64,000 bases of DNA, from positions 128,001 to 192,000 of the IMG/VR virus record IMGVR_UViG_3300033273_000282; one strand, written 5' to 3'. This stretch comes from a virus. Its lineage: Duplodnaviria > Caudoviricetes. The position numbers were made by a program, and so were the translations under genes. How positions within the stretch are numbered: the first letter of the stretch is position 1; each line of letters starts with the position of its first letter. Below the pieces are notes generated by a model that searched no databases, was not told where the DNA came from, and saw only the letters and a program-made list of their open reading frames with translations. Below, in pieces: positions 1-31,425 of this stretch.

Positions 1-1009
1 TAAGTATCGTTGGAAGTATATGTACACCATCGATGCTGACAATATTCTAAAGTTTGTTACTTCTGAGTTTATTCCTGTTCTGGAGAACCCTCTTGTAGAA
101 GCTGCCGCAGGTGCTGGGTCTGTTGATACTATCGTTATTGAGAATGCTGGTGCTGGTTACAACAATGGTACATATACTAACGTCCCCATTCGCGGAGACT
201 GGGAAATCAACGGTGGATCTCAAGCCTATTGCTCCATCACTGTGATTTCTGGTTCTATTAGCAATGTTACTGTTACTCAGTCTGGATCTAACTACAGTTT
301 TGGCACTATTGACGTTGGTCTGATTCCAAACATCGGTACTGGTGCTAACGCTGATCTAGATGTTATTATTCCTCCTAATGGTGGTCATGGTTCTGATGCC
401 ATCAGAGAACTCGGTTCTTACCGTCTGATGTTTGCTTCTAAACTTGAGACCTCTACTGCTTTTGTTGACTTCCCAACTGACCTCACATTCCGTAGAGTCG
501 GTCTGGTCCTTAATCCATATGACTACAACACCACAACGGTGTCTTCTCAAAATACAAGATCTGGCGTAAAGGCTATGATCTTCCCACAGTCAGGAACTGG
601 TTCTCCCAGTGGTACTTTCCAACCTGGCACAACTATTTCTCAGGCAACTACCCTAGCAAAGGGATATGTAGTTTCCTACGATTCTAATACTAAGATTCTA
701 AAGTATTATCAAGACTCATTTGATGGTACCACTTCTGGTAATATTATTGAGTTTTCTGGTAATTATGAAATCACATCATCTGATTTGATTACTGCCACCC
801 CTGATTCTACTTTTGGTACAGCATCTGTTCCTAAGAGCCAGATTCAGATCGGTGTTTCTGTCTATGAACTTGGTCTCTCTTTTGTAGAGGGATACGCAAA
901 CGGTGAAGTTGAAATCAACTCTGGAGAAATCCTCTACATAGATAATAGGAACCCGATTTCCAGATCGGCGGATCAGAACGAAGAGCTCAAAGTAGTAATT
1001 GAATTCTAA
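1..1009 (+). CDS. gp8: Baseplate wedge subunit gp8 (5' partial; frame open from position 2)
   Basis: Frame reads KYRWKYMYTI upstream of the ORF-track Met, a conserved internal gp8 motif. C-terminus EILYIDNRNPISRSADQNEELKVVIEF is typical of cyanophage gp8. Confidence 0.88.
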   Translation, partial: KYRWKYMYTIDADNILKFVTSEFIPVLENPLVEAAAGAGSVDTIVIENAGAGYNNGTYTNVPIRGDWEINGGSQAYCSITVISGSISNVTVTQSGSNYSFGTIDVGLIPNIGTGANADLDVIIPPNGGHGSDAIRELGSYRLMFASKLETSTAFVDFPTDLTFRRVGLVLNPYDYNTTTVSSQNTRSGVKAMIFPQSGTGSPSGTFQPGTTISQATTLAKGYVVSYDSNTKILKYYQDSFDGTTSGNIIEFSGNYEITSSDLITATPDSTFGTASVPKSQIQIGVSVYELGLSFVEGYANGEVEINSGEILYIDNRNPISRSADQNEELKVVIEF

Positions 1010-16500: not shown

Positions 16501-17626
16501 TCTGGGTGGTGTTCGTGACGTTGACCAAGATACCTACATCCTTACTGAGGTAAGTCCTGGATCTGACGAGGATACCTTCGAGTTCTACAACGCTGGTTTT
16601 AACAGCCTGAGCATTGATGTTAATACCATCACGCTTAAGACTGCCAGAACAATGGACGTTGAGGGTACACTAACCCTTAATGGAACAACAGGTTTGGATA
16701 CGCTGGATGTTCAGCGTAAGTCTACTTCTATTGTCAAAGTAAGAACAACCAAGGATCTGGAGATCACTGGTGGTTTCTATCTCAAGAACCAGTTGGCTGC
16801 TGGTACCATTGCTAGCTTTGATGATGGTACTCTGGGTGCCTCTCCTGGATCCTTCAACAGCGCAGGTAATGTATATACTCCATCTCAAACATTTAGTGCT
16901 GTTGCTGGTGTATCTGAGTTTGCTGGATCTGGATCCACATTCGATGTTGTAACTAACGCTAGTGGTGGCATTACTAGCATCAGCATTGTTAGTGGCGGTT
17001 TTGTTTATGAGGTTGGTGAAATCATCACCATCCCAGGTGGTTTGCTTGGTGGTGGCGTTGGTTCTGATGTTACCTTCACTGTTGCTAGCATCAGCAACGC
17101 TGACGTTGCTCACGGTAAAGTTAGTGCTCTCCAGAGTGAACTTCGCTTTAACCTGAACGGCGACAAGCAATTCCTCAGCCTTGATTCTAATCTTACAGAA
17201 GCTCGACTTAAAGTCAACAGAGACTATGCCACTGGTGGGCAGAACTATCTGACAGTTCTGGACTCCACAGCAAAATTTGTTGAACTCAATGATGCCAGAG
17301 TGGAGGGTGGTGAGATTACCTCCTTCTCCACAACCGTAACTATCACCCAGTTTGAGAAGACTCAGTATAAGGGTGCTAAGACTTTGATCACTCTTGAGAG
17401 TGATGATGGTAAGGTACACATGTTTGAAGTAACAACCATCTGTGCCGCTAGTGGGACTGTGGCTCACGCTACCGTCACAAACTCCATCACATCCGACAAT
17501 GATTTGATGGATGCTTCAGTATCGGTTGCTGGCAACAACGTCCAGATTTCCTTGGCAAAATCGTCGCAGGCAACCTCTTCTTCGACCTTTACAGGTAGAT
17601 ATACAACTACCAAGGTCAAGGTATAA
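10448..17626 (+). CDS. Giant tail-fibre-like protein (2392 aa): beta-helix, LamG domain, GxGY..P repeats, cupredoxin-like domain
   Basis: Fibre N-terminus MATRIKLKSS..VP...L..E.GLN; PFLTVAKAL..G.Y.E beta-helix start; LamG motifs FCVETWIY, WVHIAVAR, GHLDEIRVSKG (about 11762-12300); IRYNTTTSQFEGY motif. Confidence 0.8.
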   Translation: MATRIKLKSSVTASQVPTTSDLEDREVGLNITDKKLYVNNNGTIEEVANAEPNPASVTTAMLATDITNGPGATWFVAQNGTDVTTLGGGGANGKHPDTPFLTVAKALSVAQPGDSIEIAAGSYVETFPLTIPDGVHVRGSGIRQTEIKPSGGTNDLNAFVLNGDVTVEDLTIRDFFYNSTNDTGYGFVCANNWNSERSAYIQRVTILNKGSVTSGSDPYGFQQGDAGRGAKLDGSIANSAGIEAAVLFNECTFIVPNSVGLYLTNGIRVEWLNGFIYFADEGIKGVQGATGAFGTGRTRLRLSGTSGTFAAGEEIYQLEDQFQSGTYSRSGTTVTITRNAHGLVNGDRVYADFITGTATDNFYVVGGVTTNTFTLTDSASGSTSGNVTYKKADAYGLITLNDGSYIYLSGKGEGQFTTTVEGGKTAVPNADAQADNSVKKFGTGSLLLDGTGDYVNYASEADFGFGTANFCVETWIYANALSGTQTLLDFRGSAADIAPTLRLNGGTVEYAVGGTTQISGGSLTTGTWVHIAVARFNGSTKLFVAGNQVGSTYTDTNNYGAEKGLKIGAQYDNSTNYNGHLDEIRVSKGTARFTGNFTPSSAEYGTDIFTVLLLHFNANDGATIFIDSGSAIKDIRSNGGDSATGIALVDYNQFGAELRSIASANVYGNKGVVADGNGVKLLLTAHNFAYIGAGQDFTNDGSLAAQSNEVEELNGGRVFYSSTDQKGDFRVGNVFLVDQETGNVNFSSTSTSQEAASITLSDVTGTTNIFPAYIETGNLRLAGNTVSTTSGDIIFDPAGNQDVIYNAEVVFTEGVYYDQPKSANFKTDVPGNLGFYEGQNQRRGGFNGYGVQSDTNFYLTKEQVTTVTVDTEGDGYTGGAATIDADTNPPVVCTATLTLDLQDGALKEINVTAGGDNYVSDPTVGFSAPQDAGGSTPSVSAVLFSYGDVQAITVDDGGAGYAAAPGLVIDAPGGISFDTESDISGNAIQSANHPMRNGDRVVYSQNQGAENIGLTDGTTYFVVNAVNDSIGAGVSFQLSATQGGAVIPLTASASGSGESQAINGVQATATCTLSGDAIASVTITEPGSLYDRGAGVSVQEDGSQSPTTAATLTVYIGSPLSGFIINSRGSGYNAAPTVSFTNAAVDTYGAGAAATTTIGFPLAQEPAGLTVTNAGAGYAFAPQYKLSGGNPVTEAVLSPTLDKKKGNISSVGITGFGVGYSSAPTVTFYGGAGDGARLTVNVQSLDGTITNGGTGYVAGKYQSVELEYVSGGSGAPASNATADFTVAGWTGNVTNAGSGYIDGQYDGHVMYNVPAATYTVTVITNPGAAPPDNVYVINGTTQASLNFVEGNTYRFDQSDSSNSGHPLLAGREDGGTLSTDILAVSYGTPGDAGAFTDIIVKPGTAGEVLDYICSNHSNMGGSVTIGTGAAGNYGTGLSANVTVSGGQITAIESAAQGTDYAVGDTVSVNPYAMDTSGAGSGFLWTLAANDTTISVVDNISLTGGPYEVGMILSVDVQNVGGSGSNFTYTVSKAGFVKDVDVVQGSEGYGYTAGEILYPRIDPTTTGNAFQLTVGSTTTTPVWEFTHDGSIVNSAFNVAGTKDPTYDPGTLSLGSGVPKIVMETEFGNITTDGNLTVKGNLTLGDDAAVDTITVAASTTATGDTTQTGDFSLTGDMTIDGIFTQSGGASFLEELTGTIADGTAAAPSLALNTSPTTGLFWADTDIIGISNAGVETGRIGPAAYAVGTRFQVGSSSITASPLLDANPATNLVRIGSSASGLSISSTGLIEGNGTDANIGITLQPKGTGNVTVVGGTDKDFVLNDGTSLELFKVDLDSGDANLKGGLTLNSRLEIKDYTLTNQSLATASFGEVVSFDTSGTATLFTDGSFTNVNITATGTGKGTGGQVDVTVVGGTITTVVKAISGSAGRDYVLGDTITIDPAIIGTDPAQTITITDVSGAGIDLKPQARKNVRINGTGTFVVPVGGTNDRPVADDLYVGGIRYNTTTSQFEGYNGIDFVSLGGVRDVDQDTYILTEVSPGSDEDTFEFYNAGFNSLSIDVNTITLKTARTMDVEGTLTLNGTTGLDTLDVQRKSTSIVKVRTTKDLEITGGFYLKNQLAAGTIASFDDGTLGASPGSFNSAGNVYTPSQTFSAVAGVSEFAGSGSTFDVVTNASGGITSISIVSGGFVYEVGEIITIPGGLLGGGVGSDVTFTVASISNADVAHGKVSALQSELRFNLNGDKQFLSLDSNLTEARLKVNRDYATGGQNYLTVLDSTAKFVELNDARVEGGEITSFSTTVTITQFEKTQYKGAKTLITLESDDGKVHMFEVTTICAASGTVAHATVTNSITSDNDLMDASVSVAGNNVQISLAKSSQATSSSTFTGRYTTTKVKV

Positions 17627-17629
17627 ATA
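17622..17629 (+). promoter_or_regulatory. T4 late promoter TATAAATA
   Basis: Exact consensus overlapping the upstream stop codon, 20 nt before the ATG at 17650. Confidence 0.75.
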
Positions 17630-17649
17630 ACGAAAGGTAACCTAAAACA

Positions 17650-18186
17650 ATGGCGATTAAGAACTTTTCATCGGTAGGGGGGTTTGCCGTAGGCTCAACT
17701 GAGGTGCTCAACACCGAGTTTGAACTTAAAAATATCTCAGCCATCCACATGGTTAGTGATAATTTTAGCGATGCTACAAATGACTTGTACATTGCTAAAA
17801 GGACAACCGACCCCTCGAATACAGTTCTTCGTTTGAGCCTTGATGGTAGCACTAACATTGATACCAACACGCCAGCTTTGGGACACAATAGTGTGGCGTT
17901 TATTAAGTCTAAAATCTTTGGGCAAGAGCAAAATGACAACACCTATATCCTTGCGGGTATAGATGAGTCAGTGGTTACGGTTGATGCTAGTGGGGTCCCA
18001 ACACTTCAAGCAACTTATAAAACTGTTATTCACGAGCATCTGCCTGGTACGGAAACCTGGAGTTTTACTCCAGTAGCATTCCAAATTGGTGCTGCTGCTT
18101 ACTTCAGTTATGACGTTGAGACGGTAACTAATACCTCTACTGTAAAATGGCTTGCGATGATTGAAATCACTAATGTCACAACATAA
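17650..18186 (+). CDS. Hypothetical virion-associated protein (178 aa)
   Basis: Beta-rich ORF between two giant fibres, behind a late promoter. Confidence 0.65.
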   Translation: MAIKNFSSVGGFAVGSTEVLNTEFELKNISAIHMVSDNFSDATNDLYIAKRTTDPSNTVLRLSLDGSTNIDTNTPALGHNSVAFIKSKIFGQEQNDNTYILAGIDESVVTVDASGVPTLQATYKTVIHEHLPGTETWSFTPVAFQIGAAAYFSYDVETVTNTSTVKWLAMIEITNVTT

Positions 18187-18206
18187 AGACTTCGGAGTAT
18201 CCTTAG

Positions 18207-21200
18207 ATGAGCTTAAGCCTTAATTCTTCACAGCAAAGACTTGAGGGTAGCGGTCTAGTCCCCCAGGGTCCCTGGACTTCCGCTACTTATGGTAGAGCTA
18301 ATGGTATCGTCACTGTTACTTCCGTTGCTCACAGATTAAACGATGAAGAAAGAATCTATATCAAGTTTGGCGAAGACCAACTTTTGAGAACGATTCCTGC
18401 TGGTCAGCATGAAATCAATGTAGTTGACGACGATACATTTACCATTACTGGTACTGGGCAGAACTTTATTGAGGCTGCTACTGCTTGTTCTTATCGTCTG
18501 GTAAGATCCTTTGTACTTAACGCCACCGACTCCATGGCGTTCACCGTTGGCACTGGAGCCAACGAAGATGATGCTGTCTTCATTAACAAAGGTCCTACTG
18601 GAAACATCCGTGTTGGTATTAACAACACTAACCCTGAGTTTGACCTCGACGTTGAAGGTCAGATCAGAACCACTCGATCCATCATTTCTGATACAGCGCA
18701 AATCAGAAACCTGGATGTTACCAACGAGTTTGTAACCAAGGGTCTGGATCTGCGTGGTCCTAACCTTATTAACTTTGAGGAAACTGATCCTACCGCTAGT
18801 GACTTCGGTACGATCTACTATCCTACTGCTGACAACCCTCCACGTCAGACACAGAATAATAGAATTGCTACAACCAAGTTCGTATATGACGTTGCTACTG
18901 CCGATAACGGCGGTCGTGTATACGTATCTTCGGTCCCTGGTATTGGTGATGACGAGAACGATGGTCGTTCCGCCGCTAAGCCAGTTCGTACTATTAAGAA
19001 GGCAGCACAGATTGCCTACTCCCTCCAGCAGGACACTGAAGTACCTGAGTACGTGTCCATCATTGTATCGGGTGGTGACTATGTTGAAGACAACCCAATC
19101 TCGCTGCCTTACAACTGCTCGCTGATTGGTGATAACCTTCGTCGTGTTATCCTGCGTCCTCTGAACCAGGATCGCCACATGATCAAGGCGTCCAACGAGA
19201 CGTATGCTGCTGGCGTTGTTTTCAGAGATCACCTCGACAACACTGGAACTCCAGACTGGACCTGGAAGTACGCTTACGTATTTGACGACAAACAGCGTCT
19301 GTACTACGAGCCTGAAATTGCTCCATTCTCCTTCTCTCCTGGTCTTGAGAACCAAGGTCGTAACCTTTTTGCTATCACCTTTGAGAACCATACTGGTGAT
19401 AACACAACCCTTCTCGTCGGTTATGCCGTTGAGGGTGGTTCTTCGTCCTCTAGAGGTATCATTGAATCTGTAGTATTCACTGGTCCCAATGCTTCTCCAT
19501 ATTCTTCTGGTACCATTCAGGTATTGATGAGTGACGATCAGTCAACATTCCTGTTGGCTGAAAAACTATACTATGCTGACATCTACGCCAACATCGTTAA
19601 GACAGGTGCTTCCCCATCTGACTCTCTTGACGTTGCTGACCGTGAATCTCAGAGACCAGAAACTGAGGTTATCAAGCACCAGAGATATCAGCACGTTATT
19701 AGTTCTGAGACTGAGACTCTGCGCTTTGATGGTACAGATCTTAATAATGTCATTGATACTACTGACAACAGAATTACAATCCCACTCCACAGATTGTATA
19801 CTGGTGCCAAGGTAATCTATAAAGTTCAGAATGAAGACGGCGCTCCCGTTGAGGGTCTGACTGATAACACCACTTACTTTGTTCGTGTTATCAATGACAA
19901 TACTATCGAGTTGTATGATACTTGGCTGGATGCTACAAGTCTCCAGACTACAACTGGTATTAGAAACCTGAGTGATGAAGGTAGTGGCGATGAGCACACC
20001 CTGTTCACATGTAGGGTTTCGGTCAACGACGACACTATCTACTTCCCCAACCATGGTCTGTTTACGGGCAATGGTATTTACTACCGTGCTTCTAAGGCAG
20101 GCGGTATTGGTGGTCTTAATGACAACTCTCTGATCTTTGTCTATAGAGTAGACAGCCATCACTTTAAGCTTGCTAATACTCAGGCAGATGCTACCAATAA
20201 GAACATTTCTGGTGAAGATGCTCCAGTAATTCTGCCTCTGACTTCTGAGGGTATTGGTTATCAGCGCTTTGAGAAAGCAATCAACGTTGTTGACATCTCT
20301 AGCGTAACTACTGACGTTGCTACTCAGCAAGCATACAACGGTATCATCTATGAAGTCACTGCGGCTTCTAGAGTTATTGAAGGTATTAACTTCGTTGGTC
20401 ATGACTATGAAGTCGGTCAAGAAGTACAAATCTATGGTCTTCCTTACACCGCACTGAGTTTCGGTAGCGGTGCTAGTGCTACCTATACTCAAACAGCAAA
20501 CCTGATTACAGTTACGGTCTCCAATACAGACCCAACTGTAATGAACGTTCTTTGGCCAAACCTCAAGACCCTTGGTCCTGTTGGTGGTAAGGGCGTTGGT
20601 GTTCGCATGGTCTTTGACGATGCTGGTAACACTGGACATATCAATAAGTCTTTCCACATCGCCACGTATCAAGACGGTACACTGGCTCAAACCCAGTCCG
20701 ATTTTAATGCTTATCTGGGCAGCCCATCTAACCTGGGCGCTGGTGTTGCTAGATATAATTCTTCTACTAATGAGGTTTACTTCCTCCTTAGAGCAGTAGA
20801 CTCTGCTACCAGAAGTGGTACAGTAACTGTCTTCGACAACCTTGGCGACTTCAATGGTCGTAAGTACGTTACTCATCGTATTGAGCGTGCTGACGGCTAC
20901 TCTGTTAAGTTCGTAACTAGAGGTTCTTGCTCTAGAATTGCTACGGCTCTTGACCCATCTGGTGACCAGCAGGTTTGTTCTGCTACCAACTATGCTTTGA
21001 TGTCGCTGAGGAACTCTCCTTATGCGTTCGATAAAGTAGAGTTTGGCGCTAACGTCCAAGAATCTGCTAAGCAAAGAGACGCTGCTGAGACAATCAACAA
21101 TAACCTCAGCTTCATTGCTGAGGAATCTTACGCTTATGTTAAGTCCCAGTACAACGCTGGTACTAACACAAGTTTCTCCAGAACTGGTACATACACCTGC

Positions 21201-24200
21201 TCTGGCAATGTAATGACTGTTACTTGCCCTAGAGGTTCTGCTGTATTTGCCAAGAACTCCTACGCTTTTAACTTCAGCGGTGCCACTACAGACGGTGCTT
21301 ACATCGTTGATGACTGTGAGGATCACAGAAGATTCACAATCATCCTCCCTGCTGCTAGCACGGATTCTGGTACAGTAACTATCACCATCCCTGCTCCTTG
21401 GCAGACACCAAACTCTGTTCCTCCCGTTGACAGAGCTGCTGATGGCACATCTTTGATTCTGGCTAACAAGCAACTGATTGCTCAAGAAGCAGTTGCTCGT
21501 ATGTTGATTGCTAACCCAACCTTCAACATTCCAACTGGCAACCAGGCTTGTATTGATGATGCTGTTGACTTCCTGGAAGCAATGGCATACAACCTTGCTT
21601 ACGGTGGTAACGATCAGGTCTATGATGCCGCTAAGTATTATGTTGATGGCGCTCACGTTGTAGGTGAGGAAGATGAATCTGTAGAGGTCTTCAACAACGC
21701 CAGAGACATTGCTATTCAAGTAATGCGTAACCAGACGGTTACCATCCAAGGTAGCCATGGTCTGACTCAGATTAAAGACTTTACCATCTCCCCCGACTCT
21801 GCTAACTCTGGAGTCGGTGATCGCTTCAGTGATGCTCGCAACCTGATCTACAAGAACAAAGAGTTCATTGCTGAGATCGCTGTCGGCAGATTGAATGCCA
21901 ACCTCGGATATGAGGTTGTAGATTCCAGACACATGGATGCCCACGATCTGCTGATCGCTAACCTGGACTTCATTGCTGAAGAAGCATATGCTGTTCAGTT
22001 GGCTGCCGATCCTAATCTGACCACCCCAACAGGTGATCCTCAGGATTGTATCGATGACGTTAGAGACATCCTTACCGCAGTTGCTTTCAACGTACAGCAT
22101 GGTAGCAACAACCAAGTCTGGGATGCTGCTAACCTGTATGTTGGTACACCTCACATTCAAGGTGAAGAAGCTAACTCTATTGCGATTATCAACCACGCAA
22201 GAGACATTGCTAAACTGGTAATCACCAACAGAACTCACACTAAAGTTGGTAGTCACGAATACACCCAGTCCTTCGATACCACCATCACCCACGATCAATC
22301 TGCTTCTGGTGGCGCTTACAGTTCTGCTGATTGCGCTAACGTCCAGAGCACCATTGATTCTCTGATGCTGATCGTTACCGATGCGATCACCAACCAGACT
22401 CTGAATGGTGTTACTAAGACTACCCCTGCTACCTTCTCCGTTCCAACTGGCAACCAGTCCTGTATTGATGACATCATCAATATTCTGGAAGTTGCTTCCT
22501 GGAACTTGGCTATGGGTGGCAACGACTTCACCTATGATGCTGCTAACCTGTACATCACAGGCAACCACGTCGTTGGCGAAGAGAACCACTCCATCTATGC
22601 TTTCCGTCAGGCAAGAGATATTGCCATCGAGTGTTTCCAGAATGAAGATGTAACTACTGGTGGATACACCCAACGCACTCAATTTAAGGATCTTACGATC
22701 ACTCAGGACACAGGTCTTCCAATCTGTGCTAACGTAATCGCATCACTTACTGCGTTGATGAACGTTGTTGAAGTTGCTATTGATACCCAGTCTCTGTCTT
22801 CTTTTACTAGAACGGATTCTTACGCAAACAGATGTTCTGACACTGCTGCTGCCATCACCTCTCTGACTGGTGTTGTTACAGGTGCTATTGGTAGCACTGG
22901 TAACCCTGGTAGCCTGAGTGGTGTTGTTAGAACATATCCAGTTAGCGACCAACAGTGTATTGATGACGTATATCACGTACTCCGTGCTTGGATGTACGAC
23001 ATGCGTTATGGCGGTAACTCCAAGACTATTGAAGCCGCACAGAAGTACATCCAAGGTACTAACGTTAACTACGTTACTAATGAAGTACCTCAAACTCGTG
23101 AGGTATATACAAGAGCCGAGCAACTTGCTACTCTTGCTATTCGTAACCAACTCCCTCAGGGTGAGTTCTCGCAGATTGCTCCATTCCACAACGCATCTAC
23201 AACAGTTGATAGCAACCAACCCGAGTGTGGTGCTTCTATCACCTTCCTGAATGGTCTTGCTACCATTCTGGATGACGCGCTGTCAACTGCTGGAACATCA
23301 CTTTCCAATGTTACTCTCACCGAGCCAAGCACACTCCTGAAAGATGACAGTGGACTTAAGATTGTCCCAATGTTGGCTGACAACCTTGACCTACCTGTTA
23401 TTGAGGCATCGCCTTACATCCAGAACGCATCGCTGATTTCGTTCCTGGGTGCGTCTGGTGCTGAGATCGATGGTGCTAAGGTTGCTTCTCCCAACGTTCC
23501 CCGTCCTGGTGTATTCCTCGACGGTAACGGTGTTGAGCGTTCTACTTTCCCACCTCAGGGTAAGTCGATGGTTGCCAACGCCTTCACGATCATCTCGGTC
23601 AACGGCGGTGTTGGATATAACATTCTGAACGATGGTTACACCCAGCTGGTGTCGGTCTTTGTCATCTTCGGTGGAGATGGTGTTATTGTTCAGTCTGGTG
23701 GTTATGCCTCACTGACTAACTCTGCTTCTAACTTTGGTACCCGTGCTCTGAAGGCAACTGGTTACCGTTCTGAGGCTTATGAGTTTGACGTTGGTACCGT
23801 AACCCAGATCAGAAACCAAACAGACAACAACGGTGCTCAAACTGGTCGTCAGATCATTGAGGTCGGTGGTCCTATCACCAACTTCCCTGTTGAAGACTAT
23901 ATCATCAAATTTGAAGGATTTAGAAATTCTGATCCTGCTAAGGAATACTTCGTCCTTGGTACGGAACAACTGTCTGGTTCGATCGGTACTCAGATTACCG
24001 CTAACGTTACTACTAACGACGGTCTGGGTCTTGATCTGATCAGAGAGTCCGATAGCACAAACGTGTCGTTCCAGAACGGCAACCTGGATCTGCTGAACAA
24101 TGCGGTCATCAAATTCCACAGACCTTCGATCTGTAACTCCTCCTCCCACACCTGGGAATATGTTGGTGCTGGTGATACCTATAACGCTCTGCCTCAAAAC

Positions 24201-27200
24201 GGTGGTGTTGGTATTCCTGCTAACGAAGCAGTTGAAGAAGCATACGGTCAGGTCTACACCTCTGGTACTAACGAATTCGGTGACTTCAAGGTTGGTGACT
24301 TTGTTACCATCTTCAACAGAACTGGTAGTATCAGCTTCGTTGGTACTGTTAGTATCTCCGAACTGTCTTCGATTAAGATCGTTGGTGGCTCTATCACCAT
24401 TACTGGATTCTCCGACAGTGATGAACTGGGTGGTGCTTTTGCTTCTGACTCCTTGCTGCCTACACAGGCTGCTGTTAAGGACTACATCACCAACAAACTT
24501 GGTCCATACCTGAACCAGCCATACTCAACCAACGCTGTTCCTAGCGCTCTGGTTCAGTTGACCACTAGCGGTAAGATCAACATTGAACAGATCCCCGCTC
24601 TGCGTCCTTTCAATATCACATCTGTTGCCTCTACTGCCGAGCGTCTTGCTATTGAAGATGCCAGCGCTGGTGACATCGCTATTGAAACAACTTCGACTTC
24701 TTATCAAGTTGCTCCTTCTAGCGTTGATATTGTCAATGAAGTTATCACCATTCCTTCTCACGGTCTTACCACTGGCGATATTCTGACCTACTTCCAAGGT
24801 ACCTCCAACATTGGTAACTTGGCTGATGGTGCTAACTACTATGTAATTCAACATGCTATTGGTGCTAACACCACCGACTACATCAAACTCGCTACTTCCT
24901 TGGCTGATGCTCAGGCAGGCACTGCGAGAAACCTGACTTCTCAAGGTACTGGCACCCACGTCTTCCGTACTGAAGGTGCTGCTATTTCCTACATTCTGGA
25001 AAATGACCTTGATACAATGTATGCTGCGTTTGTTCCTAACAGCGCATACGTATTCAGCAACAACTCTCTGATTATTGGTTCTCAGTCTACTGCTCAGGTA
25101 ATCGTCACCAACTACGAAGGTGGTGTCGTCAGAGACATTCTGATCGATGATCCTGGTTCTGGTTACGCTACTGCTCCTGGTATTAGCATCAGTGCTCCAC
25201 CTAGCGGTACTCAAGCAACTGCGAGTTGTACTATCACTAATGGTCAGGTAGCGTCGATCACCATTACCAACCCTGGTTCTGGTTACTACACAGCACCTAC
25301 AGTTTCTTTCACAGGTGCTCCTACAGGCGGTACAACTGCTACTGCTCAGGGCAATGCTGCTAGAATTGAAGCCAGACTTTATGTTGATCTTGCTAATAAT
25401 ATCAAGATCTCTGACATTGACTTCATTCTTGACGAAGCAAACGTCACCGTAGCCAGCGGCGTATACACCCACGATACCTTCGATATCACAATTACTGAAA
25501 CCAATCACGGATTTAGCCAAGGTGATACGGTATATCTGGAATTCACATCTGGTTCTTCGACCAGTGGTTTCTACTCTGTTGATAGTATTGTCAACGCAAA
25601 CGAGTACACGGTTGTTGCTCAGACAGCACTCCTTACCTCTGGTAACTACAACAGAAAGAGAATCGTTGACATCACCAGAGTTGTTAACACCTCTGCTTCT
25701 AACGCTCAGAACTGGACTCAGTTGTCCTCCACTAACATCGATGCTTCTAACATCGTTGCTGGTGTTATTGACCCACAGCGTTTGGCTGACACTGGTGTTG
25801 CTAACTCCTTCACCTTCCTTAGAGGTGATGCTTCCTTCCAGTATGCTGTTCAGTCGATTAAATTTACTACAGACGATGTTCTGGTTGGTGAATCTTCGAT
25901 TCAGGATAACAGCTACATTGAGAAAGTTAATATCGTTAACCCTGGTTCTGGTTATACCGTTGGTACATACCAGAACATCCCAATGGTCGGCGGTAACGTT
26001 CAGATCTCTGAGCAAGGCGTTGCTCGTGCTACCTATACCGTCGCTGACGTTGTAACTGGTGGTATTGTAGATAGCGTAAGTAACCTGTCGTTTACCCCAG
26101 GATCTTACACCCCCAGCAGCACATTTGACGTTTCTGTTTCTACCACCGATGGCGCTGGTCTCGGTGCTCAGATCAGATTCGTAACTGATGTCAACGGTGA
26201 TATCGCAGTTGATATCATTCTCGATGGTGGATCTGGATACAATGGTGGCGATACTCTTGAATTTGACGGTCCACTCTTCGGTGGTACTGTACAGCAGGGC
26301 GTAAGCGTAACTGTATCCACGTTGACTTCCAGCACAACCCTTGGTGCTATCACTAGCGTTTCGGTTGTTACTCCTGGTACTGGATACACCTCTGACTTTA
26401 CACTCACAGTTCCTAGCGAACTGGGTCAACCAGTTCAGGCAGGTAGTCTGACTGCTGTTAAGGGTACATTGTCTCGTTACTACGGTAACGCTTCGTTTGA
26501 CCTTCTCAAGGCAAACAACCTTACCCCAACAACCCTCCAGGCTGGCGGTTCGGTCTTCGGTAACTATGGTATCGCCAAGTTCCGTAAGCCAGCTGCTGAG
26601 CAAGCGCTCGCTAACCAAGACCTCGGTGGTTTCGTTATTACCACTGCTGGTGAAGTTACCATTGACCAGGGTCCTGGTTCTAAACTGAACGCTGATAAAC
26701 TGGATGGTAACGAAGGTTCCTTCTACCAGAACGCTACCAACCTTATTGAGGGTATTCTTGATCCTCAGCGCCTGGCAAACACCACCTACAACATCTCGAT
26801 CTCTGGTACAGCAGACTACGCAAACACTCTGTTCTGCGAAACAACTGCTCCATCTTCCGCTAACGCTTCCCTCGTCAGCGCTGCTAACGTAGGTACCCAG
26901 CTTGCCCTGAGATCCAACTCCGTAACTGGTATTCCTACCGATGCTGGTGGAACCAGAGCGGGTATCATGACGTTCCGTCGTTCCGCAACTGGTAACTCTG
27001 TTGCTCAGTTGGCTTTCTCTGCCACCGACAACCTGTACCTGAGAGGCAACTCTGACACTGGTACTGTATATGGTCAGTGGGCGAAGATCTGGTCTTCTGA
27101 GAACGATGGTGCTCCCGATCCTAACGATCCTCGTCGTGGCACTCTGCCTGGTCCAGATGCCGACTACCTCGATGGTAAGCAAGGTCTCTGGTATCAAGGT

Positions 27201-29108
27201 GGTTACAACATCAATGACCAGCGTGTTGCTGGTGTCATCGGTGACACTGCTCTGCCCGAGCTGCTGGGTCGTAATAAGTATTTCGCTGACAACCTGTATC
27301 TGGTTGCTTCAAGTGAGACTTACGAACTGTATGTTCCCGACTTCTTCTGTGCTACTGGTACTGCTCCTGTTGGTAACTTGGCTAACAATGGAGTTTATAC
27401 ACTCTACTCCGATGAAGCCGCTGTCAATAACATCGGTACAATCACCATTCTTGCTAACGGTATTTCCGAAGTTAACGACACCACTACTGGTTCCATCTAC
27501 ACAACGATTAGAGGTACAATCAGTTTCGTTGGTAACTACACCAACAAAGATATCAAGGTCTTTGGTCCTAACCCTGGTACTAAGTGGACTGTTACTTCTT
27601 CCAACCTGCTGACCACTGGCGCAAGTCAAGTGTTCGCTATGAGCAACACCGCTAACGGTGCTCTGCTTGAAATTGGTAGAACTAACATCGTTGCTACCCC
27701 AACCATTGACTTTAGATCTGGTGCTCTGGCTTCTGACTATGATGTAAGATTTGAAGTTAGCGGTGGCACCGCACAGAACGGTGAAGGTGTTATCGAACTG
27801 AAGACCAGTTCCTTCACCCTGAACGGCAACACTGTATGGCACTCTGGTAATGACGGTGTTTCCTCTCAGTTGGACGCACACTATGTTGATGGTTACATCC
27901 AGAGCTCTTCTAACACAAACAATGCTCTTGTAAGAAGAACATCAAGCGGCGACATTAACATCTCTGACGTATACGCTGATCAAGGTATCTTCGCCAACAC
28001 TGGTGAATCCATCCTTCAACTTGCTGATAGCAACGGTATCAACCTCGGTAAGGCAGGCACTAACGTTCTGTCCCTCAGAGGTAGACAGAATACCAATACT
28101 GGTTACATTGAGTTTGGTAATGATTCCAAGAAACTTGGTTGGAACGGTACTCACCTGTCCTACGGTACAATCTACTTCCGTAACAACAGAATCGGTATTG
28201 GCAATGATAACCCACAATATGATCTTCACGCCGCAGGTGATATCGTCACTGGTAGCACAAGCAGATCCGCTAATACAGTTGTTCGTGCTCTCTCGGGAGA
28301 CAGCAACCAAGCAGGCTTTGAAGCGTACGGTAACAGCCAAGGTACTGGTTACCTGTACATAGGTCAGTCTACTTCTTATGGTGGTGGTATTGCCTATAAC
28401 GGCGACAACTCCCCCGCAGCGTTCGGTTCTGAACAGGGTGACGATATCACCTTCTACAGAAGAAACAACGGCACTGACACCCGTGTCATGAAGTACCGTT
28501 ATAATGATTCTACCGTTCACTTCTTCGGTCAGATTCGCTCTCGCGTTGCTACTGGTACCGCTCCCGTCGATGTAGACTCCACTACAGTATGTAATAACCT
28601 GAACGCTGACCTGCTCGATGGATACCAGGCAAACAACCTGCCTTACCTGTCCAGAGCAGTCAACACCTGGATTACTGATGCGAACGGTCAGCAGAGATTC
28701 TACTTCTCTAACAACTCTCATACATACTTCAGAACTGGTAATGACTTCTTCTTCAGAAATGATTCTGATCAGACATTCTTGTCGATGGATGAGGGTGGTA
28801 GAGTTCACTTCCACGAGCCAGGTAGCAACAGCATTCAGAGCAGCTACAGACTCCAAGTTACTGGAGATAGTGGTCTTAACATTAACGCTTCTGAAAGTCT
28901 CTCTAGTGGTCAGAAGTCTACTGTTCTCAGAGCAACTGGAGACAAGCAGTATCTTGACTCCTATGGTATAATCAAGAGAAACCGTCAGAACATTAGCGAG
29001 TCTATCACCATCAACAACGGTGATTCTTGTGGATCCTTTGGTCCTATCACTATAAATAATAATGTGACCATTCAAGTCGCCCCAGGCGGTGCCTGGGTAA
29101 TTCTCTAA
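18207..29108 (+). CDS. Giant multidomain virion/fibre protein (3633 aa) with split beta-helix and four phycobiliprotein-like helical domains
   Basis: Single open frame with GGAG SD at 18194. Contains DDENDG....P..TIKKA beta-helix start, NHGL..G..Y repeats, CIDD..YGGN helical repeats, RIGIGNDNP and LNADLLDGY fibre motifs, and C-terminal GPITINNNVTIQVAPGGAWVIL. Confidence 0.8.
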   Translation: MSLSLNSSQQRLEGSGLVPQGPWTSATYGRANGIVTVTSVAHRLNDEERIYIKFGEDQLLRTIPAGQHEINVVDDDTFTITGTGQNFIEAATACSYRLVRSFVLNATDSMAFTVGTGANEDDAVFINKGPTGNIRVGINNTNPEFDLDVEGQIRTTRSIISDTAQIRNLDVTNEFVTKGLDLRGPNLINFEETDPTASDFGTIYYPTADNPPRQTQNNRIATTKFVYDVATADNGGRVYVSSVPGIGDDENDGRSAAKPVRTIKKAAQIAYSLQQDTEVPEYVSIIVSGGDYVEDNPISLPYNCSLIGDNLRRVILRPLNQDRHMIKASNETYAAGVVFRDHLDNTGTPDWTWKYAYVFDDKQRLYYEPEIAPFSFSPGLENQGRNLFAITFENHTGDNTTLLVGYAVEGGSSSSRGIIESVVFTGPNASPYSSGTIQVLMSDDQSTFLLAEKLYYADIYANIVKTGASPSDSLDVADRESQRPETEVIKHQRYQHVISSETETLRFDGTDLNNVIDTTDNRITIPLHRLYTGAKVIYKVQNEDGAPVEGLTDNTTYFVRVINDNTIELYDTWLDATSLQTTTGIRNLSDEGSGDEHTLFTCRVSVNDDTIYFPNHGLFTGNGIYYRASKAGGIGGLNDNSLIFVYRVDSHHFKLANTQADATNKNISGEDAPVILPLTSEGIGYQRFEKAINVVDISSVTTDVATQQAYNGIIYEVTAASRVIEGINFVGHDYEVGQEVQIYGLPYTALSFGSGASATYTQTANLITVTVSNTDPTVMNVLWPNLKTLGPVGGKGVGVRMVFDDAGNTGHINKSFHIATYQDGTLAQTQSDFNAYLGSPSNLGAGVARYNSSTNEVYFLLRAVDSATRSGTVTVFDNLGDFNGRKYVTHRIERADGYSVKFVTRGSCSRIATALDPSGDQQVCSATNYALMSLRNSPYAFDKVEFGANVQESAKQRDAAETINNNLSFIAEESYAYVKSQYNAGTNTSFSRTGTYTCSGNVMTVTCPRGSAVFAKNSYAFNFSGATTDGAYIVDDCEDHRRFTIILPAASTDSGTVTITIPAPWQTPNSVPPVDRAADGTSLILANKQLIAQEAVARMLIANPTFNIPTGNQACIDDAVDFLEAMAYNLAYGGNDQVYDAAKYYVDGAHVVGEEDESVEVFNNARDIAIQVMRNQTVTIQGSHGLTQIKDFTISPDSANSGVGDRFSDARNLIYKNKEFIAEIAVGRLNANLGYEVVDSRHMDAHDLLIANLDFIAEEAYAVQLAADPNLTTPTGDPQDCIDDVRDILTAVAFNVQHGSNNQVWDAANLYVGTPHIQGEEANSIAIINHARDIAKLVITNRTHTKVGSHEYTQSFDTTITHDQSASGGAYSSADCANVQSTIDSLMLIVTDAITNQTLNGVTKTTPATFSVPTGNQSCIDDIINILEVASWNLAMGGNDFTYDAANLYITGNHVVGEENHSIYAFRQARDIAIECFQNEDVTTGGYTQRTQFKDLTITQDTGLPICANVIASLTALMNVVEVAIDTQSLSSFTRTDSYANRCSDTAAAITSLTGVVTGAIGSTGNPGSLSGVVRTYPVSDQQCIDDVYHVLRAWMYDMRYGGNSKTIEAAQKYIQGTNVNYVTNEVPQTREVYTRAEQLATLAIRNQLPQGEFSQIAPFHNASTTVDSNQPECGASITFLNGLATILDDALSTAGTSLSNVTLTEPSTLLKDDSGLKIVPMLADNLDLPVIEASPYIQNASLISFLGASGAEIDGAKVASPNVPRPGVFLDGNGVERSTFPPQGKSMVANAFTIISVNGGVGYNILNDGYTQLVSVFVIFGGDGVIVQSGGYASLTNSASNFGTRALKATGYRSEAYEFDVGTVTQIRNQTDNNGAQTGRQIIEVGGPITNFPVEDYIIKFEGFRNSDPAKEYFVLGTEQLSGSIGTQITANVTTNDGLGLDLIRESDSTNVSFQNGNLDLLNNAVIKFHRPSICNSSSHTWEYVGAGDTYNALPQNGGVGIPANEAVEEAYGQVYTSGTNEFGDFKVGDFVTIFNRTGSISFVGTVSISELSSIKIVGGSITITGFSDSDELGGAFASDSLLPTQAAVKDYITNKLGPYLNQPYSTNAVPSALVQLTTSGKINIEQIPALRPFNITSVASTAERLAIEDASAGDIAIETTSTSYQVAPSSVDIVNEVITIPSHGLTTGDILTYFQGTSNIGNLADGANYYVIQHAIGANTTDYIKLATSLADAQAGTARNLTSQGTGTHVFRTEGAAISYILENDLDTMYAAFVPNSAYVFSNNSLIIGSQSTAQVIVTNYEGGVVRDILIDDPGSGYATAPGISISAPPSGTQATASCTITNGQVASITITNPGSGYYTAPTVSFTGAPTGGTTATAQGNAARIEARLYVDLANNIKISDIDFILDEANVTVASGVYTHDTFDITITETNHGFSQGDTVYLEFTSGSSTSGFYSVDSIVNANEYTVVAQTALLTSGNYNRKRIVDITRVVNTSASNAQNWTQLSSTNIDASNIVAGVIDPQRLADTGVANSFTFLRGDASFQYAVQSIKFTTDDVLVGESSIQDNSYIEKVNIVNPGSGYTVGTYQNIPMVGGNVQISEQGVARATYTVADVVTGGIVDSVSNLSFTPGSYTPSSTFDVSVSTTDGAGLGAQIRFVTDVNGDIAVDIILDGGSGYNGGDTLEFDGPLFGGTVQQGVSVTVSTLTSSTTLGAITSVSVVTPGTGYTSDFTLTVPSELGQPVQAGSLTAVKGTLSRYYGNASFDLLKANNLTPTTLQAGGSVFGNYGIAKFRKPAAEQALANQDLGGFVITTAGEVTIDQGPGSKLNADKLDGNEGSFYQNATNLIEGILDPQRLANTTYNISISGTADYANTLFCETTAPSSANASLVSAANVGTQLALRSNSVTGIPTDAGGTRAGIMTFRRSATGNSVAQLAFSATDNLYLRGNSDTGTVYGQWAKIWSSENDGAPDPNDPRRGTLPGPDADYLDGKQGLWYQGGYNINDQRVAGVIGDTALPELLGRNKYFADNLYLVASSETYELYVPDFFCATGTAPVGNLANNGVYTLYSDEAAVNNIGTITILANGISEVNDTTTGSIYTTIRGTISFVGNYTNKDIKVFGPNPGTKWTVTSSNLLTTGASQVFAMSNTANGALLEIGRTNIVATPTIDFRSGALASDYDVRFEVSGGTAQNGEGVIELKTSSFTLNGNTVWHSGNDGVSSQLDAHYVDGYIQSSSNTNNALVRRTSSGDINISDVYADQGIFANTGESILQLADSNGINLGKAGTNVLSLRGRQNTNTGYIEFGNDSKKLGWNGTHLSYGTIYFRNNRIGIGNDNPQYDLHAAGDIVTGSTSRSANTVVRALSGDSNQAGFEAYGNSQGTGYLYIGQSTSYGGGIAYNGDNSPAAFGSEQGDDITFYRRNNGTDTRVMKYRYNDSTVHFFGQIRSRVATGTAPVDVDSTTVCNNLNADLLDGYQANNLPYLSRAVNTWITDANGQQRFYFSNNSHTYFRTGNDFFFRNDSDQTFLSMDEGGRVHFHEPGSNSIQSSYRLQVTGDSGLNINASESLSSGQKSTVLRATGDKQYLDSYGIIKRNRQNISESITINNGDSCGSFGPITINNNVTIQVAPGGAWVIL
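29051..29058 (+). promoter_or_regulatory. T4 late promoter TATAAATA embedded in the 3' end of the 3633-aa gene
   Basis: Exact consensus 58 nt upstream of the ATG at 29117. Confidence 0.55.
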
Positions 29109-29116
29109 GTAAATCT

Positions 29117-29869: not shown

Positions 29870-29872
29870 ACA

Positions 29873-30634: not shown

Positions 30635-30637
30635 ACA

Positions 30638-31393: not shown

Positions 31394-31395
31394 TT

Positions 31396-31402: not shown

Positions 31403-31425
31403 GTTACCAAGGAATCTAGAGTAAA

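What the first reader, a model, noticed from the sequence alone, without database searches (positions are those of the whole stretch)
22329..23295. Each phycobiliprotein-like domain also keeps a Cys155-like site: a candidate substrate for phage CpeT lyases
Seen: four terminal helices each begin with Cys: ADC1376ANVQSTIDSLMLIVTDAI, PIC1507ANVIASLTALMNVVEVAI, NRC1543SDTAAAITSLTGVVTGAI, PEC1674GASITFLNGLATILDDAL. Established (from memory): phycocyanin beta ends GDC153/155SALMSEIAGYFDRAAAAVA with the same spacing. T-type lyases (CpcT/CpeT) attach bilin at this Cys, and T4-like cyanophages commonly encode a CpeT homologue plus bilin synthesis genes whose physiological target is unclear. Inference: the phage lyase might chromophorylate a phage protein rather than a host one. 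No cpeT gene is visible in this window.
Basis: inference. Interest (0 to 1): 0.72.

Follow-up and report, generated by a model that had tools for sequence, protein, structure and literature searches.

The report
Second pigment-type cysteine in cyanophage fibre
A giant tail-fibre protein of a marine cyanobacterial virus contains four copies of the host's light-harvesting pigment-protein fold. Three of them keep a cysteine exactly where the host's T-type lyase attaches a second pigment, which gives the virus's own unexplained lyase gene (cpeT) a testable target.

Summary
The 3633-aa ORF (18207..29108) has Cys at 1376, 1507, 1543 and 1674, each at the start of a helix.

- **Fold:** the four domains are true relatives of phycobiliprotein beta subunits (profile-profile probability 96.6%; structural Z 11-14).
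- **Site:** C1376, C1507 and C1674 align residue-for-residue with Cys153 of a real Synechococcus CpcB, the T-type lyase site.
- **Corrections:** domain 1 has no such Cys. C1543 lies in the N-terminal helix of domain 4, opposite CpcB residue 37.
- **Conservation:** this helix class starts with Cys in 344 of 378 strong-scoring copies. The cysteines are lost independently, so an obligate disulfide is unlikely.
- **Lyase gene:** the genome carries cpeT about 60 kb upstream of this ORF, outside the window, but no pebS, pcyA or ho1.
- **Co-occurrence:** in 31 cyanomyovirus genomes cpeT and the domain go together in 29 (30 if an annotated cpeT that fails the Pfam threshold counts). The cases cluster on the tree, leaving about two independent contrasts, so the link is suggestive only.

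Nothing shows that pigment is attached. I put about 0.35 on T-lyase-type bilin attachment. The scan has already found the phycobiliprotein-like modules on other DNA, in at least eight notes. This report adds the residue-level match of the second site and the cpeT co-distribution.

The parts
18207..29108 (+). Giant virion (tail-fibre or baseplate type) ORF, 3633 aa, P0001
   Evidence: PHROG matches are tail fibre or virion structural protein (phrog_5342 at 2311 bits, phrog_4527, phrog_701). Homologues are annotated gp7 baseplate wedge, tail protein or structural protein in named cyanophages.
21399..21902 (+). Phycobiliprotein-like domain 1 (aa 1065-1232). It has the Cys84-type Cys1115 and no Cys153-type Cys.
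   Evidence: Domain HMM envelope. The Pfam PF00502 match lies here (22.1 bits against a cut-off of 22.2). hhalign places C1115 on CpcB C82, D1079 on D39 and V1203 opposite C153.
21909..22406 (+). Phycobiliprotein-like domain 2 (aa 1235-1400). Cys1281 is Cys84-type and Cys1376 is Cys153-type.
   Evidence: hhalign places C1281 on C82, D1244 on D39 and C1376 on C153.
22314..22799 (+). Phycobiliprotein-like domain 3 (aa 1370-1531). Cys1419 is Cys84-type and Cys1507 is Cys153-type.
   Evidence: AF2 model has pLDDT 78.3 and pTM 0.75. The top 50 Foldseek and VIA matches are PBP beta chains bar one stressosome globin, Z up to 12.1. hhalign gives 96.6% with C1507 on C153.
22803..23300 (+). Phycobiliprotein-like domain 4 (aa 1533-1698). 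Cys1584 is Cys84-type, Cys1674 is Cys153-type, and Cys1543 is an extra Cys in the N-terminal helix.
   Evidence: VIA aligns model 175..328 with PC beta 34..172 at rmsd 2.7-3.0 over 128-130 residues. hhalign places C1674 on C153, C1543 opposite R37 and D1545 on D39.
22332..22334 (+). Codon of Cys1376 (Cys153-type site of domain 2; the same helix serves as N-terminal helix of domain 3)
   Evidence: Kept only in the two closest orthologues.
22725..22727 (+). Codon of Cys1507 (Cys153-type site of domain 3)
   Evidence: Kept in orthologues down to about 41% identity, then replaced by Thr.
22833..22835 (+). Codon of Cys1543 (start of the N-terminal helix of domain 4; not a Cys153-type site)
   Evidence: Family column 9. 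Opposite CpcB residue 37. Kept in 16 orthologous rows.
23226..23228 (+). Codon of Cys1674 (Cys153-type site of domain 4)
   Evidence: The most widely kept of the four, also in distant proteins.
21549..22958 (+). Span holding the four Cys84-type codons (Cys1115, 1281, 1419, 1584), each in the motif C-I-D-D
   Evidence: Family-wide this Cys is kept in 1111 of 1130 copies and the Asp two residues after the next in 1120 of 1130. The Arg86 position is Arg in 661 copies and Asp in 412.

Best explanation
The stretch encodes the C-terminal parts of tandem phycobiliprotein (PBP) beta-type domains embedded in a giant virion fibre or baseplate protein.

- **What is there:** besides the nearly invariant Cys84-type cysteine, domains 2, 3 and 4 keep a cysteine at the N-terminal cap of helix H. 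This is the position of beta-Cys153/155, the one site that T-type bilin lyases (CpcT/CpeT) serve.
- **Proposed mechanism (inferred, not shown):** during infection a bilin made by the host (phycoerythrobilin or phycocyanobilin) is attached by thioether bond to this cysteine while the fibre protein folds in the cytoplasm. The attachment is catalysed by the phage's own CpeT or by the host's T-type lyase. The assembled virion would then carry pigment on its fibre or baseplate.
- **Shown here:** homology, fold, residue-level equivalence of the cysteine, its strong conservation within its helix class, presence of cpeT in this genome, and co-distribution of cpeT with the domain.
- **Inferred:** bilin binding, lyase action and any light-related role.
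For: **1. Homology**
- A profile of 82 diverse domain copies hits 126 PDB sequences at E<=1. The 60 best listed are all phycobiliproteins, the best at 1.3e-5.
- hhalign against the PBPs of Synechococcus MIT S9451 gives 96.6% probability and E 6.3e-10 over query 2-157 and CpcB 28-172.

**2. Fold**
- The AF2 single-domain model has pLDDT 78.3.
- All top 50 Foldseek matches are PBP beta chains with probability up to 1.00.
- VIA gives Z 11-14.

**3. Site equivalence**
- C1376, C1507 and C1674 fall on CpcB Cys153.
- The structural ranges give the same register.
- The local motif [G/S/D]-[D/S/N]-C-[A/S/T] resembles the S-G-D-C-A of real CpcB and the Q-G-D-C-S of CpeB and MpeB.

**4. Asp39**
- Asp39, which from the C-phycocyanin literature as I remember it hydrogen-bonds the beta155 bilin, has an Asp counterpart in domains 1, 2 and 4. 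It is the family consensus.

**5. Conservation**
- 344 of 378 strong H-type helices start with Cys, although Cys makes up only 0.6% of the protein.
- The cysteines are lost independently of each other.

**6. The lyase**
- cpeT is present in this genome (61 bits over the two pieces).
- T-type is the only lyase type found. No S-type lyase was found in the 8 phage genomes tested, and PMC10665884 reports only T-type in clusters A and B.
- T-type lyases combine high site-specificity with moderate protein specificity (PMC2327270).
- The role of phage cpeT is stated as unresolved (PMC3037559).

**7. Co-distribution in 31 genomes**
- Both present in 23, or 24 counting ACG-2014f, whose annotated cpeT fails the Pfam threshold. 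Neither in 6. Domain only in 2 (B3 and ACG-2014f), or 1 on the lenient count. cpeT only in 0.
- cpeT lies directly upstream of the PBP-domain gene in ACG-2014j, S-WAM2 and S-PM2.
Against: - No experiment or dataset here shows a bilin on any virion protein, and I found no paper reporting pigmented cyanophage particles.
- The C-terminal half of the domain has no sequence match of its own to any solved structure (profile A5, 0 hits at E<=10). The Cys-on-Cys alignment therefore rests on the whole-domain profile and on the predicted fold.
- Where the Cys is replaced, the substitutes are Thr, Ser, Gly, Asp and Asn. These are the classic helix N-cap residues, so a purely structural role fits.
- Family-wide the column is Cys in only 34% of copies.
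- P-SSM4, P-RSM4, P-SSM7 and S-SCSM1 have cpeT but no such Cys. B3 has the Cys in 5 of 5 domains and no cpeT.
- The co-occurrence needs only 3-4 changes on the gp23 tree, and only about two independent pairs go the same way. The sign test is not significant.
- In this protein the Arg86 position is Asp in all four domains.
- Domain 3 has Thr at the Asp39 position.
- This genome has no bilin reductase or heme oxygenase.
- cpeT lies about 60 kb from this gene.
Confidence: 0.35

Rival explanations
1. Structural remnant. The Cys is the N-cap or first-turn residue of helix H, inherited from a PBP beta-type ancestor. It is kept because a small polar residue is needed there. It carries no ligand, and the domains are only rigid helical spacers in the fibre.
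For: - Substitutes at the position are Thr, Ser, Gly, Asp and Asn, which are typical N-cap residues.
- The column is Cys in only 34% of all copies, and most inter-core linkers have no Cys.
- C1376 and C1507 are replaced by Val, Thr, Leu or Ala in fairly close orthologues.
- The domains lack the X-Y hairpin that real PBPs use to pair (alignments start at chain residue 28-34).
- They carry a 19-residue insertion in the G-H loop.
Against: - Cys starts 91% of strong H-type helices in a protein with 0.6% Cys. That is unexpected for an exposed position on a particle that lives in oxygenated seawater.
- The Cys84-type Cys and the Asp87-type Asp are kept in 98-99% of 1130 copies that share only about 15% identity. 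This points to a retained functional site in the domain.
- cpeT co-distributes with the domain.
Confidence: 0.3
2. Disulfide or redox staple. After release into oxidising seawater, the helix-start cysteines pair with each other, stapling a domain shut or linking neighbouring chains of the fibre. Candidate pairs are C1543 with C1674, C1376 with C1507, or partners across subunits.
For: - The N-terminal-helix Cys (family column 9) occurs in 64 copies, and 58 of them also have the Cys153-type Cys in the same domain.
- In two-helix linkers the two Cys mostly occur together (17 linkers with both against 24 with one).
- C1543 maps to CpcB residue 37, near Asp39 and so near the beta155 site.
Against: - Partners are lost independently. 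C1376 is Val, Thr or Leu where C1507 stays. C1507 is Thr where C1543 stays. C1543 is Tyr, Trp, Lys or Phe where C1674 stays.
- Most Cys153-type Cys (324 of 382) have no N-terminal-helix Cys in their domain.
- The 58 co-occurrences are mostly close relatives of this protein.
Confidence: 0.12
3. Another thiol chemistry at the same site. The Cys could bind a metal or carry a different covalent modification. Nearby genes in this fibre cassette encode halogenases and oxygenases.
For: - An unpaired, conserved Cys.
I did not test it.
Against: - There is no motif of other ligands (His, Cys clusters) around the site.
- The positional identity with the bilin site of PBP beta chains gives a more direct reading.
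Confidence: 0.06

Closest known systems
Phycobiliprotein beta subunits (CpcB, CpeB, MpeB; Pfam PF00502)
   Same: - Globin-like fold with helices B, E, F, G and H (VIA Z 11-14).
- Cys82/84-x-x-Asp motif on helix E.
- Asp39 counterpart.
- A second Cys at the N-terminus of helix H, aligned on Cys153.
   Different: - No X-Y N-terminal hairpin.
- Arg86 is replaced by Asp in this protein.
- The G-H loop is about 19 residues longer and has its own conserved motif.
- The domains are tandem modules inside 3000-7000-aa virion proteins, not free 160-185-aa subunits.
- Sequence identity is 12-17%.
- No chromophore has been demonstrated.
ApcE (core-membrane linker, LCM) phycobiliprotein domain
   Same: A PBP-type domain embedded in a very large multidomain protein. 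It is a precedent for a bilin-binding PBP fold outside a free alpha/beta subunit. Its chromophore attaches autocatalytically (PMC2327270). A 1239-aa frame with two PF00502 pieces was seen in the Synechococcus genome.
   Different: ApcE has one PBP domain followed by linker repeats and sits in the phycobilisome core. Here there are 4 copies (up to 34 in relatives) in a virion protein. I made no direct comparison with ApcE.
T-type bilin lyases CpcT/CpeT and cyanophage PhiCpeT (Gasper et al. 2017, J Biol Chem 292:3089; cited in PMC10452541, not readable here)
   Same: The genome's 144-aa CpeT matches PF06206. Members of the family attach bilin regiospecifically to beta-Cys153/155, which is the position kept in domains 2-4.
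   Different: The known substrates are host CpcB, PecB and CpeB. As I recall from the 2017 paper, which I could not read here, the phage enzyme bound phycoerythrobilin tightly but did not by itself transfer it to the host beta subunit. A virion protein as substrate has not been reported, as far as my searches reach.
Non-heme globin sensor domains (N-terminal domain of stressosome RsbR, PDB 3zta)
   Same: General globin-type helical fold. It was the single non-PBP entry among the top 50 structural matches (Z 11.5).
   Different: There is no Cys-x-x-Asp motif and no sequence-profile relation. All other top matches, and all sequence hits, are PBPs.

Membership tests
Phycobiliprotein (PF00502), beta type | Sequence-profile relationship to PBPs | tested here: met
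   Profile A2 against PDB: the 60 best hits are all PBPs, best E 1.3e-5. hhalign of A3 against Synechococcus PBPs: 96.6%, E 6.3e-10, 136 columns.
Phycobiliprotein (PF00502), beta type | Pfam gathering score reached by this protein itself | tested here: inconclusive
   22.1 bits against a cut-off of 22.2 for the whole protein. Single domains score 16 and 12.9 bits. Many homologues carry a precomputed PF00502 hit.
Phycobiliprotein (PF00502), beta type | Globin-like fold with helices B, E, F, G and H | tested here: met
   AF2 pLDDT 78.3. VIA Z 10.5-12.1 for the single domain and 12-14.2 for the two-domain model, e.g. model 4..157 against PC beta 34..172. Foldseek top 50 are all PBP beta chains.
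Phycobiliprotein (PF00502), beta type | N-terminal X-Y helix hairpin used for alpha/beta pairing | tested here: not met
   Sequence and structure alignments begin at chain residue 28-34, and nothing precedes the B-type helix.
Phycobiliprotein (PF00502), beta type | Cys84 - x - Arg86 - Asp87 chromophore motif on helix E | tested here: inconclusive
   Cys and Asp are present in all four domains. Arg is replaced by Asp (C-I-D-D). Family-wide: Cys 98.3%, Asp 99.1%, Arg 58% and Asp 36% at the Arg position.
Phycobiliprotein (PF00502), beta type | Second Cys at beta153/155 (start of helix H) | tested here: met
   C1376, C1507 and C1674 fall on CpcB Cys153. Domain 1 has Val there. The structural register agrees.
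Phycobiliprotein (PF00502), beta type | Covalently bound bilin | not testable with these tools
   Needs spectroscopy, Zn-blot or mass spectrometry of the expressed domain or of virions.
Substrate of a T-type bilin lyase (CpcT/CpeT) | Target Cys in the beta155 position, with the Asp39 counterpart nearby | tested here: met
   The Cys is met in domains 2, 3 and 4. The Asp39 counterpart is present in domains 1, 2 and 4 and is Thr in domain 3.
Substrate of a T-type bilin lyase (CpcT/CpeT) | A T-type lyase available in the same infection | tested here: met
   PF06206 match in the same genome at G000:C1:86332-86745, a 144-aa ORF. It is outside the window.
Substrate of a T-type bilin lyase (CpcT/CpeT) | Phyletic coupling of lyase and substrate | tested here: inconclusive
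   29-30 of 31 genomes are concordant, but only about two independent contrasts exist and the sign test is not significant. At the level of the site there are exceptions: B3, P-SSM4, P-RSM4, P-SSM7 and S-SCSM1.
Substrate of a T-type bilin lyase (CpcT/CpeT) | Lyase binds and modifies the domain | not testable with these tools
   Needs an in vitro or E. coli co-expression assay.

The most novel reading that the evidence does not exclude
T4-like cyanophage particles carry covalently bound bilin on phycobiliprotein-type modules of their fibres and baseplate. The second site would be loaded by the phage's own CpeT. The pigmented modules would act as a virion-borne light sensor that gates attachment to the host.

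This would explain the light-dependent, photosynthesis-independent adsorption reported for S-PM2, P-HM1 and P-HM2 (PMC6628666). Those phages have both cpeT and the domain. P-SSM2 adsorbs in the dark and has neither. The phage studied here has a gp23 90% identical to that of P-HM1.
Probability: 0.12. Interest if true: 0.95.

Novelty: new variant of a known kind. Interest (0 to 1): 0.78.

Why it matters
cpeT is among the commonest auxiliary genes of marine T4-like cyanophages. One paper puts it in more than 60% of them (PMC10665884) and another in 12 of 16 (PMC3037559). Its role has been called unresolved since 2005-2010, because the phages lack the other genes of the host's cpeESTR operon.

A phage-encoded protein that keeps the exact cysteine served by T-type lyases, and that shares cpeT's distribution among genomes, gives the gene a concrete and cheaply testable target.

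If pigment is attached, this would be the first chromophore-bearing phage particle. It would also offer a molecular candidate for the unexplained light-dependent adsorption of cyanophages, which shapes the daily rhythm of infection of the ocean's most abundant phototrophs. If pigment is not attached, the modules remain a clear case of a host antenna protein fold recruited as a building block of viral fibres.

Tried and rejected
- **Complex prediction:** domain 3 (alignment A3) with the genome's CpeT (alignment A4) returned 'no answer', score 0.01 against a mark of 0.32. This is neither support nor evidence against.
- **C-terminal half alone:** a profile of the G helix, loop and Cys helix (A5, 55 diverse copies) found nothing in the PDB at E<=10. 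Sequence similarity of this half by itself is not detectable.
- **Single-sequence searches are weak:** phmmer of the region against the PDB gave E 0.4. Pfam on the single domains was below threshold.
- **Foldseek E-values are poor:** best 0.04 for the single domain and 0.42 for the two-domain model, although the hit list is uniform.
- **Megablast** of the region against the phage collection found no match.
- **tblastn with this genome's divergent CpeT** found only 165 phage records, against 348 with the domain. I first read this as many domain-bearing phages lacking cpeT. The Pfam-profile search of whole records corrected that.
- **gp23-based loci from IMG/VR** were mostly fragments of 2-100 kb and useless for whole-genome co-occurrence.
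- **S-type lyase (PF09367)** was sought in B3 and seven other phages to explain the B3 exception; none was found.
- **Gasper et al. 2017 (PMC5336146)** is not held, so its content is cited from memory only.
- **Model coordinates** are not returned, so no Cys-Cys distances or burial could be measured.
- **Chance** as an explanation was rejected on the conservation figures.
Full report
**What is at the coordinates.** The window is bases 128001-192000 of a 200,309-bp virus record that CheckV rates complete. It encodes T4-type terminase, sheath, portal, scaffold and gp23 capsid proteins. Its gp23 is 90% identical to that of Prochlorococcus phage P-HM1. The finding lies inside one ORF, 18207..29108 on the + strand, 3633 aa. 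This ORF matches PHROG families annotated as tail fibre or virion structural protein. It also confirms a second set of Cys at 1115, 1281, 1419 and 1584, each in the motif C-I-D-D. Cys is rare in the protein (23 of 3633 residues).

**The domains are phycobiliprotein relatives.**
- Residues 1065-1698 form four tandem repeats of about 135-165 aa.
- Pfam PF00502 misses its threshold by 0.1 bit (22.1 against 22.2). A single-sequence search of the PDB gives only E 0.4.
- The family is large: 208 giant proteins in one database and 349 clusters at 50% identity in another, with up to 34 domain copies per protein. Many relatives carry a precomputed PF00502 hit.
- A profile of 82 diverse copies hits 126 PDB sequences at E<=1. 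The 60 best are all phycobiliproteins, the best at 1.3e-5.
- I fetched the real phycobiliprotein genes of Synechococcus MIT S9451. A profile-profile comparison gave 96.6% probability, E 6.3e-10, over query residues 2-157 and CpcB residues 28-172.
- An AlphaFold model of domain 3 (pLDDT 78.3, pTM 0.75) has five helices. All of its top 50 Foldseek matches are phycobiliprotein beta chains.
- VIA-align gives Z 10.5-12.1 for the single-domain model and 12-14.2 for the two-domain model. Clean superpositions include model 4..157 on phycocyanin beta 34..172, and model 175..328 on 34..172 at rmsd 2.7-3.0 over 128-130 residues.
- The only non-phycobiliprotein in the single-domain VIA list is a stressosome globin domain.
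- Across 1130 distinct copies that share about 15% identity, the Cys84-type Cys is kept in 98.3% and the Asp87-type Asp in 99.1%. The Arg86 position is Arg in 58% and Asp in 36%; in this protein it is Asp in all four domains.

**The second cysteine.**
- With each domain in turn as master of the alignment, hhalign puts C1376 (domain 2), C1507 (domain 3) and C1674 (domain 4) exactly on Cys153 of CpcB. That residue sits in the context S-G-D-C-A-S-L. Val1203 of domain 1 falls on the same position. The four runs share one alignment, so they are consistent with each other rather than independent.
- The structural superpositions give the same register on their own. The Cys precedes the last aligned residue of helix H by 19 positions in the model (138 to 157), in phycocyanin beta (153 to 172) and in the 177-residue phycoerythrin beta chains (158 to 177).
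- C1543 is different. It starts the N-terminal, B-type helix of domain 4 and falls opposite CpcB residue 37.
- The helix that begins at C1376 is the only helix between cores 2 and 3, so it also serves as the N-terminal helix of domain 3. Core spacings in the family cluster at about 130-139 residues (one linker helix) and about 160-169 (two helices).
- The family's conserved Asp-Ala at the start of the B-type helix aligns with Asp39-Ala40 of CpcB. From the C-phycocyanin structure literature as I remember it, Asp39 is the residue that hydrogen-bonds the beta155 chromophore. Domains 1, 2 and 4 have this Asp; domain 3 has Thr.

**Conservation and the disulfide alternative.**
- Over all copies the column is Cys in 34%, Ala in 25% and a gap in 28%. 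The Ala cases are mostly B-type helices of the next domain aligned into this column.
- I scored the post-core helix with a matrix built from positions +1 to +20 only, leaving the Cys out. Of the 378 strong scorers, 344 begin with Cys. The rest begin mainly with Thr, Leu, Ser and Asp. The matrix came from Cys-bearing helices, so it favours their relatives.
- In rows orthologous to domains 3 and 4 the four cysteines disappear independently. C1376 is kept only in the two closest proteins, while C1507 stays. C1507 becomes Thr where C1543 stays. C1543 becomes Tyr, Trp, Lys or Phe where C1674 stays. This argues against an obligate disulfide.
- It does not exclude an optional disulfide. 58 of the 64 copies with an N-terminal-helix Cys also have the Cys153-type Cys.
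- The substitutes Thr, Ser, Gly, Asp and Asn are the usual helix N-cap residues. A structural role is therefore a serious rival.

**The lyase.**
- The genome has a CpeT: a PF06206 match in two pieces summing to 61 bits, in a 144-aa ORF at G000:C1:86332-86745. It lies about 60 kb upstream of this ORF and outside the window.
- The genome has no ferredoxin-dependent bilin reductase and no heme oxygenase. Any bilin would have to come from the host.
- T-type lyases attach bilin regiospecifically to beta-Cys155 and show moderate protein specificity with high site-specificity. ApcE attaches its chromophore autocatalytically (PMC2327270).
- The role of phage cpeT is described as unresolved (PMC3037559). 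All lyase genes of cyanophage clusters A and B are T-type (PMC10665884).
- I found no S-type lyase in eight phage genomes tested.

**Co-distribution.**
- The domain occurs in 348 of 50,697 phage records. All are phages of Synechococcus or Prochlorococcus, or are named cyanophage or marine virus.
- I searched 30 named cyanomyovirus records, plus this genome, with the Pfam CpeT model and with the domain profile.
  - **Both present (23):** this genome, ACG-2014j, P-HM1, S-RIM2, S-RIM8, ACG-2014a, S-RIM12, S-RIM14, S-CAM8, P-TIM40, Syn10, S-SZBM1, S-SCSM1, S-P4, S-PM2, P-SSM4, P-RSM4, P-SSM7, S-ShM2, S-SSM5, S-WAM2, S-SCSM2R and S-CAM7.
  - **Neither (6):** P-SSM2, S-SM2, S-SSM7, P-TIM68, S-CRM01 and S-TIM5.
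  - **Domain only (2):** B3 and ACG-2014f. ACG-2014f has an annotated CpeT-like gene that matches by tblastn but not by Pfam.
  - **cpeT only:** none.
- The sample was not drawn blind. 14 records (13 in the first panel plus S-WAM2) were picked from the domain hit list. Three more (S-CAM7, ACG-2014f, S-SCSM2R) were picked from the cpeT hit list. Eight were picked for their cpeT status in Sullivan's table: three without cpeT and five with it.
- On a gp23 tree, four of the 'neither' phages form part of one clade that also holds S-SCSM1 (both) and B3 (domain only).
- cpeT needs only 3-4 changes and the domain 4 changes on the 30-phage tree (2 and 3 on the first, 26-phage tree). About two independent pairs go the same way and none the other way. 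The sign test cannot reach significance.
- At the level of the site, 16 of 20 cpeT-bearing phages checked have at least one domain with the Cys153-type Cys: S-PM2 8 of 9, S-RIM14 4 of 4, Syn10 3 of 3, P-HM1 4 of 5. P-SSM4, P-RSM4, P-SSM7 and S-SCSM1 have none, and B3 has 5 of 5 without cpeT.
- cpeT lies directly upstream of the domain-bearing giant gene in three phages: ACG-2014j (290-bp gap), S-WAM2 (about 1.3 kb) and S-PM2 (about 1.5 kb). These three form one clade on the tree. Elsewhere the genes lie 35-90 kb apart.
- The link is therefore suggestive and not demonstrated.

**Reading.** The evidence establishes four things:
- a host antenna protein fold has been recruited into virion fibres;
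- the two cysteine positions that carry pigment in beta subunits are kept;
- the second is strongly conserved within its helix class;
- its dedicated lyase type is the one that phages carry.

No step of pigment attachment is shown. I put 0.35 on T-lyase-type bilin attachment, 0.30 on a ligand-free structural remnant, 0.12 on a disulfide or redox staple and 0.06 on other thiol chemistry.

The most novel reading not excluded is a virion-borne light sensor. P-HM1, P-HM2 and S-PM2 adsorb only in light, independently of photosynthesis, and have both genes. P-SSM2 adsorbs in the dark and has neither (PMC6628666).

**Novelty.** Full-text searches found no paper describing phycobiliprotein-type domains in phage structural proteins, or a phage substrate for CpeT. 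The library is incomplete. This scan has noted the modules before on other DNA. One earlier follow-up concluded that a link limited to cpeT stays open. The present work agrees with that. It adds the residue-level match of the second site, its conservation figures and a tree-aware co-occurrence count.

Noticed in passing
L006 (KJ019069.1 ACG-2014j) 16004-28991; KU686211.1 S-WAM2 17199-33280; AJ630128.1 S-PM2 163961-177267: In one clade of cyanomyoviruses cpeT sits immediately upstream (0.3-1.5 kb) of the giant 'short tail fiber/tail protein' gene that carries the phycobiliprotein-like domains. In other lineages, and in this genome, the two genes are 35-90 kb apart.
   Followed up: partly
L131 (NC_006884.2 P-SSM4 70100-76300): The three phycobiliprotein-like domains of P-SSM4 have lost the otherwise 98% conserved Cys84-type cysteine (Gln, Lys and Val instead), and partly the Asp as well, although the phage has cpeT. 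This looks like a degenerate set of copies.
   Followed up: no
L103 (AJ630128.1 S-PM2 169700-170110): The S-PM2 record annotates five tRNA genes (His, Gln, Trp, Arg, Val) inside the open 3792-aa frame of S-PM2p218, on top of sequence that encodes phycobiliprotein-like domains. This may be an annotation artefact of that old record, or an oddity worth a look.
   Followed up: no
G000:C1:36000-48000 (L135), outside the window: A second giant ORF of the same genome (a 3796-aa frame) carries two more phycobiliprotein-like domains, one of them with the Cys153-type Cys (P-A-C-A-N).
   Followed up: partly
window 22620-22725 and the equivalent loops of the other domains: The loop between helices G and H is about 19 residues longer than in real phycobiliproteins. 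It carries its own conserved motif (T-Q-x-x-D-x-T-I-T-x-D), a family-specific feature of unknown role that lies right before the Cys.
   Followed up: no
G000:C1:86320-86754 (L001:1294-1728) against window 62020-63387: The capsid protein gp23 is 90% identical to that of P-HM1, but the CpeT is only about 35% identical to P-HM1's. Only 8 homologues turned up in a 5.8-billion-protein search, so this lyase gene is unusually divergent or was exchanged.
   Followed up: no
window 1010-7690 and 10448-17626: Two further giant ORFs (2226 and 2392 aa) precede the 3633-aa gene in the same orientation. I did not analyse them.
   Followed up: no
P0128, P0130, P0136 (relatives): Some distant relatives have 20-34 domain copies per protein. 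Their post-core helices lack the Cys altogether, while the Cys84-type Cys is kept. The second site is thus a feature of a subfamily.
   Followed up: partly
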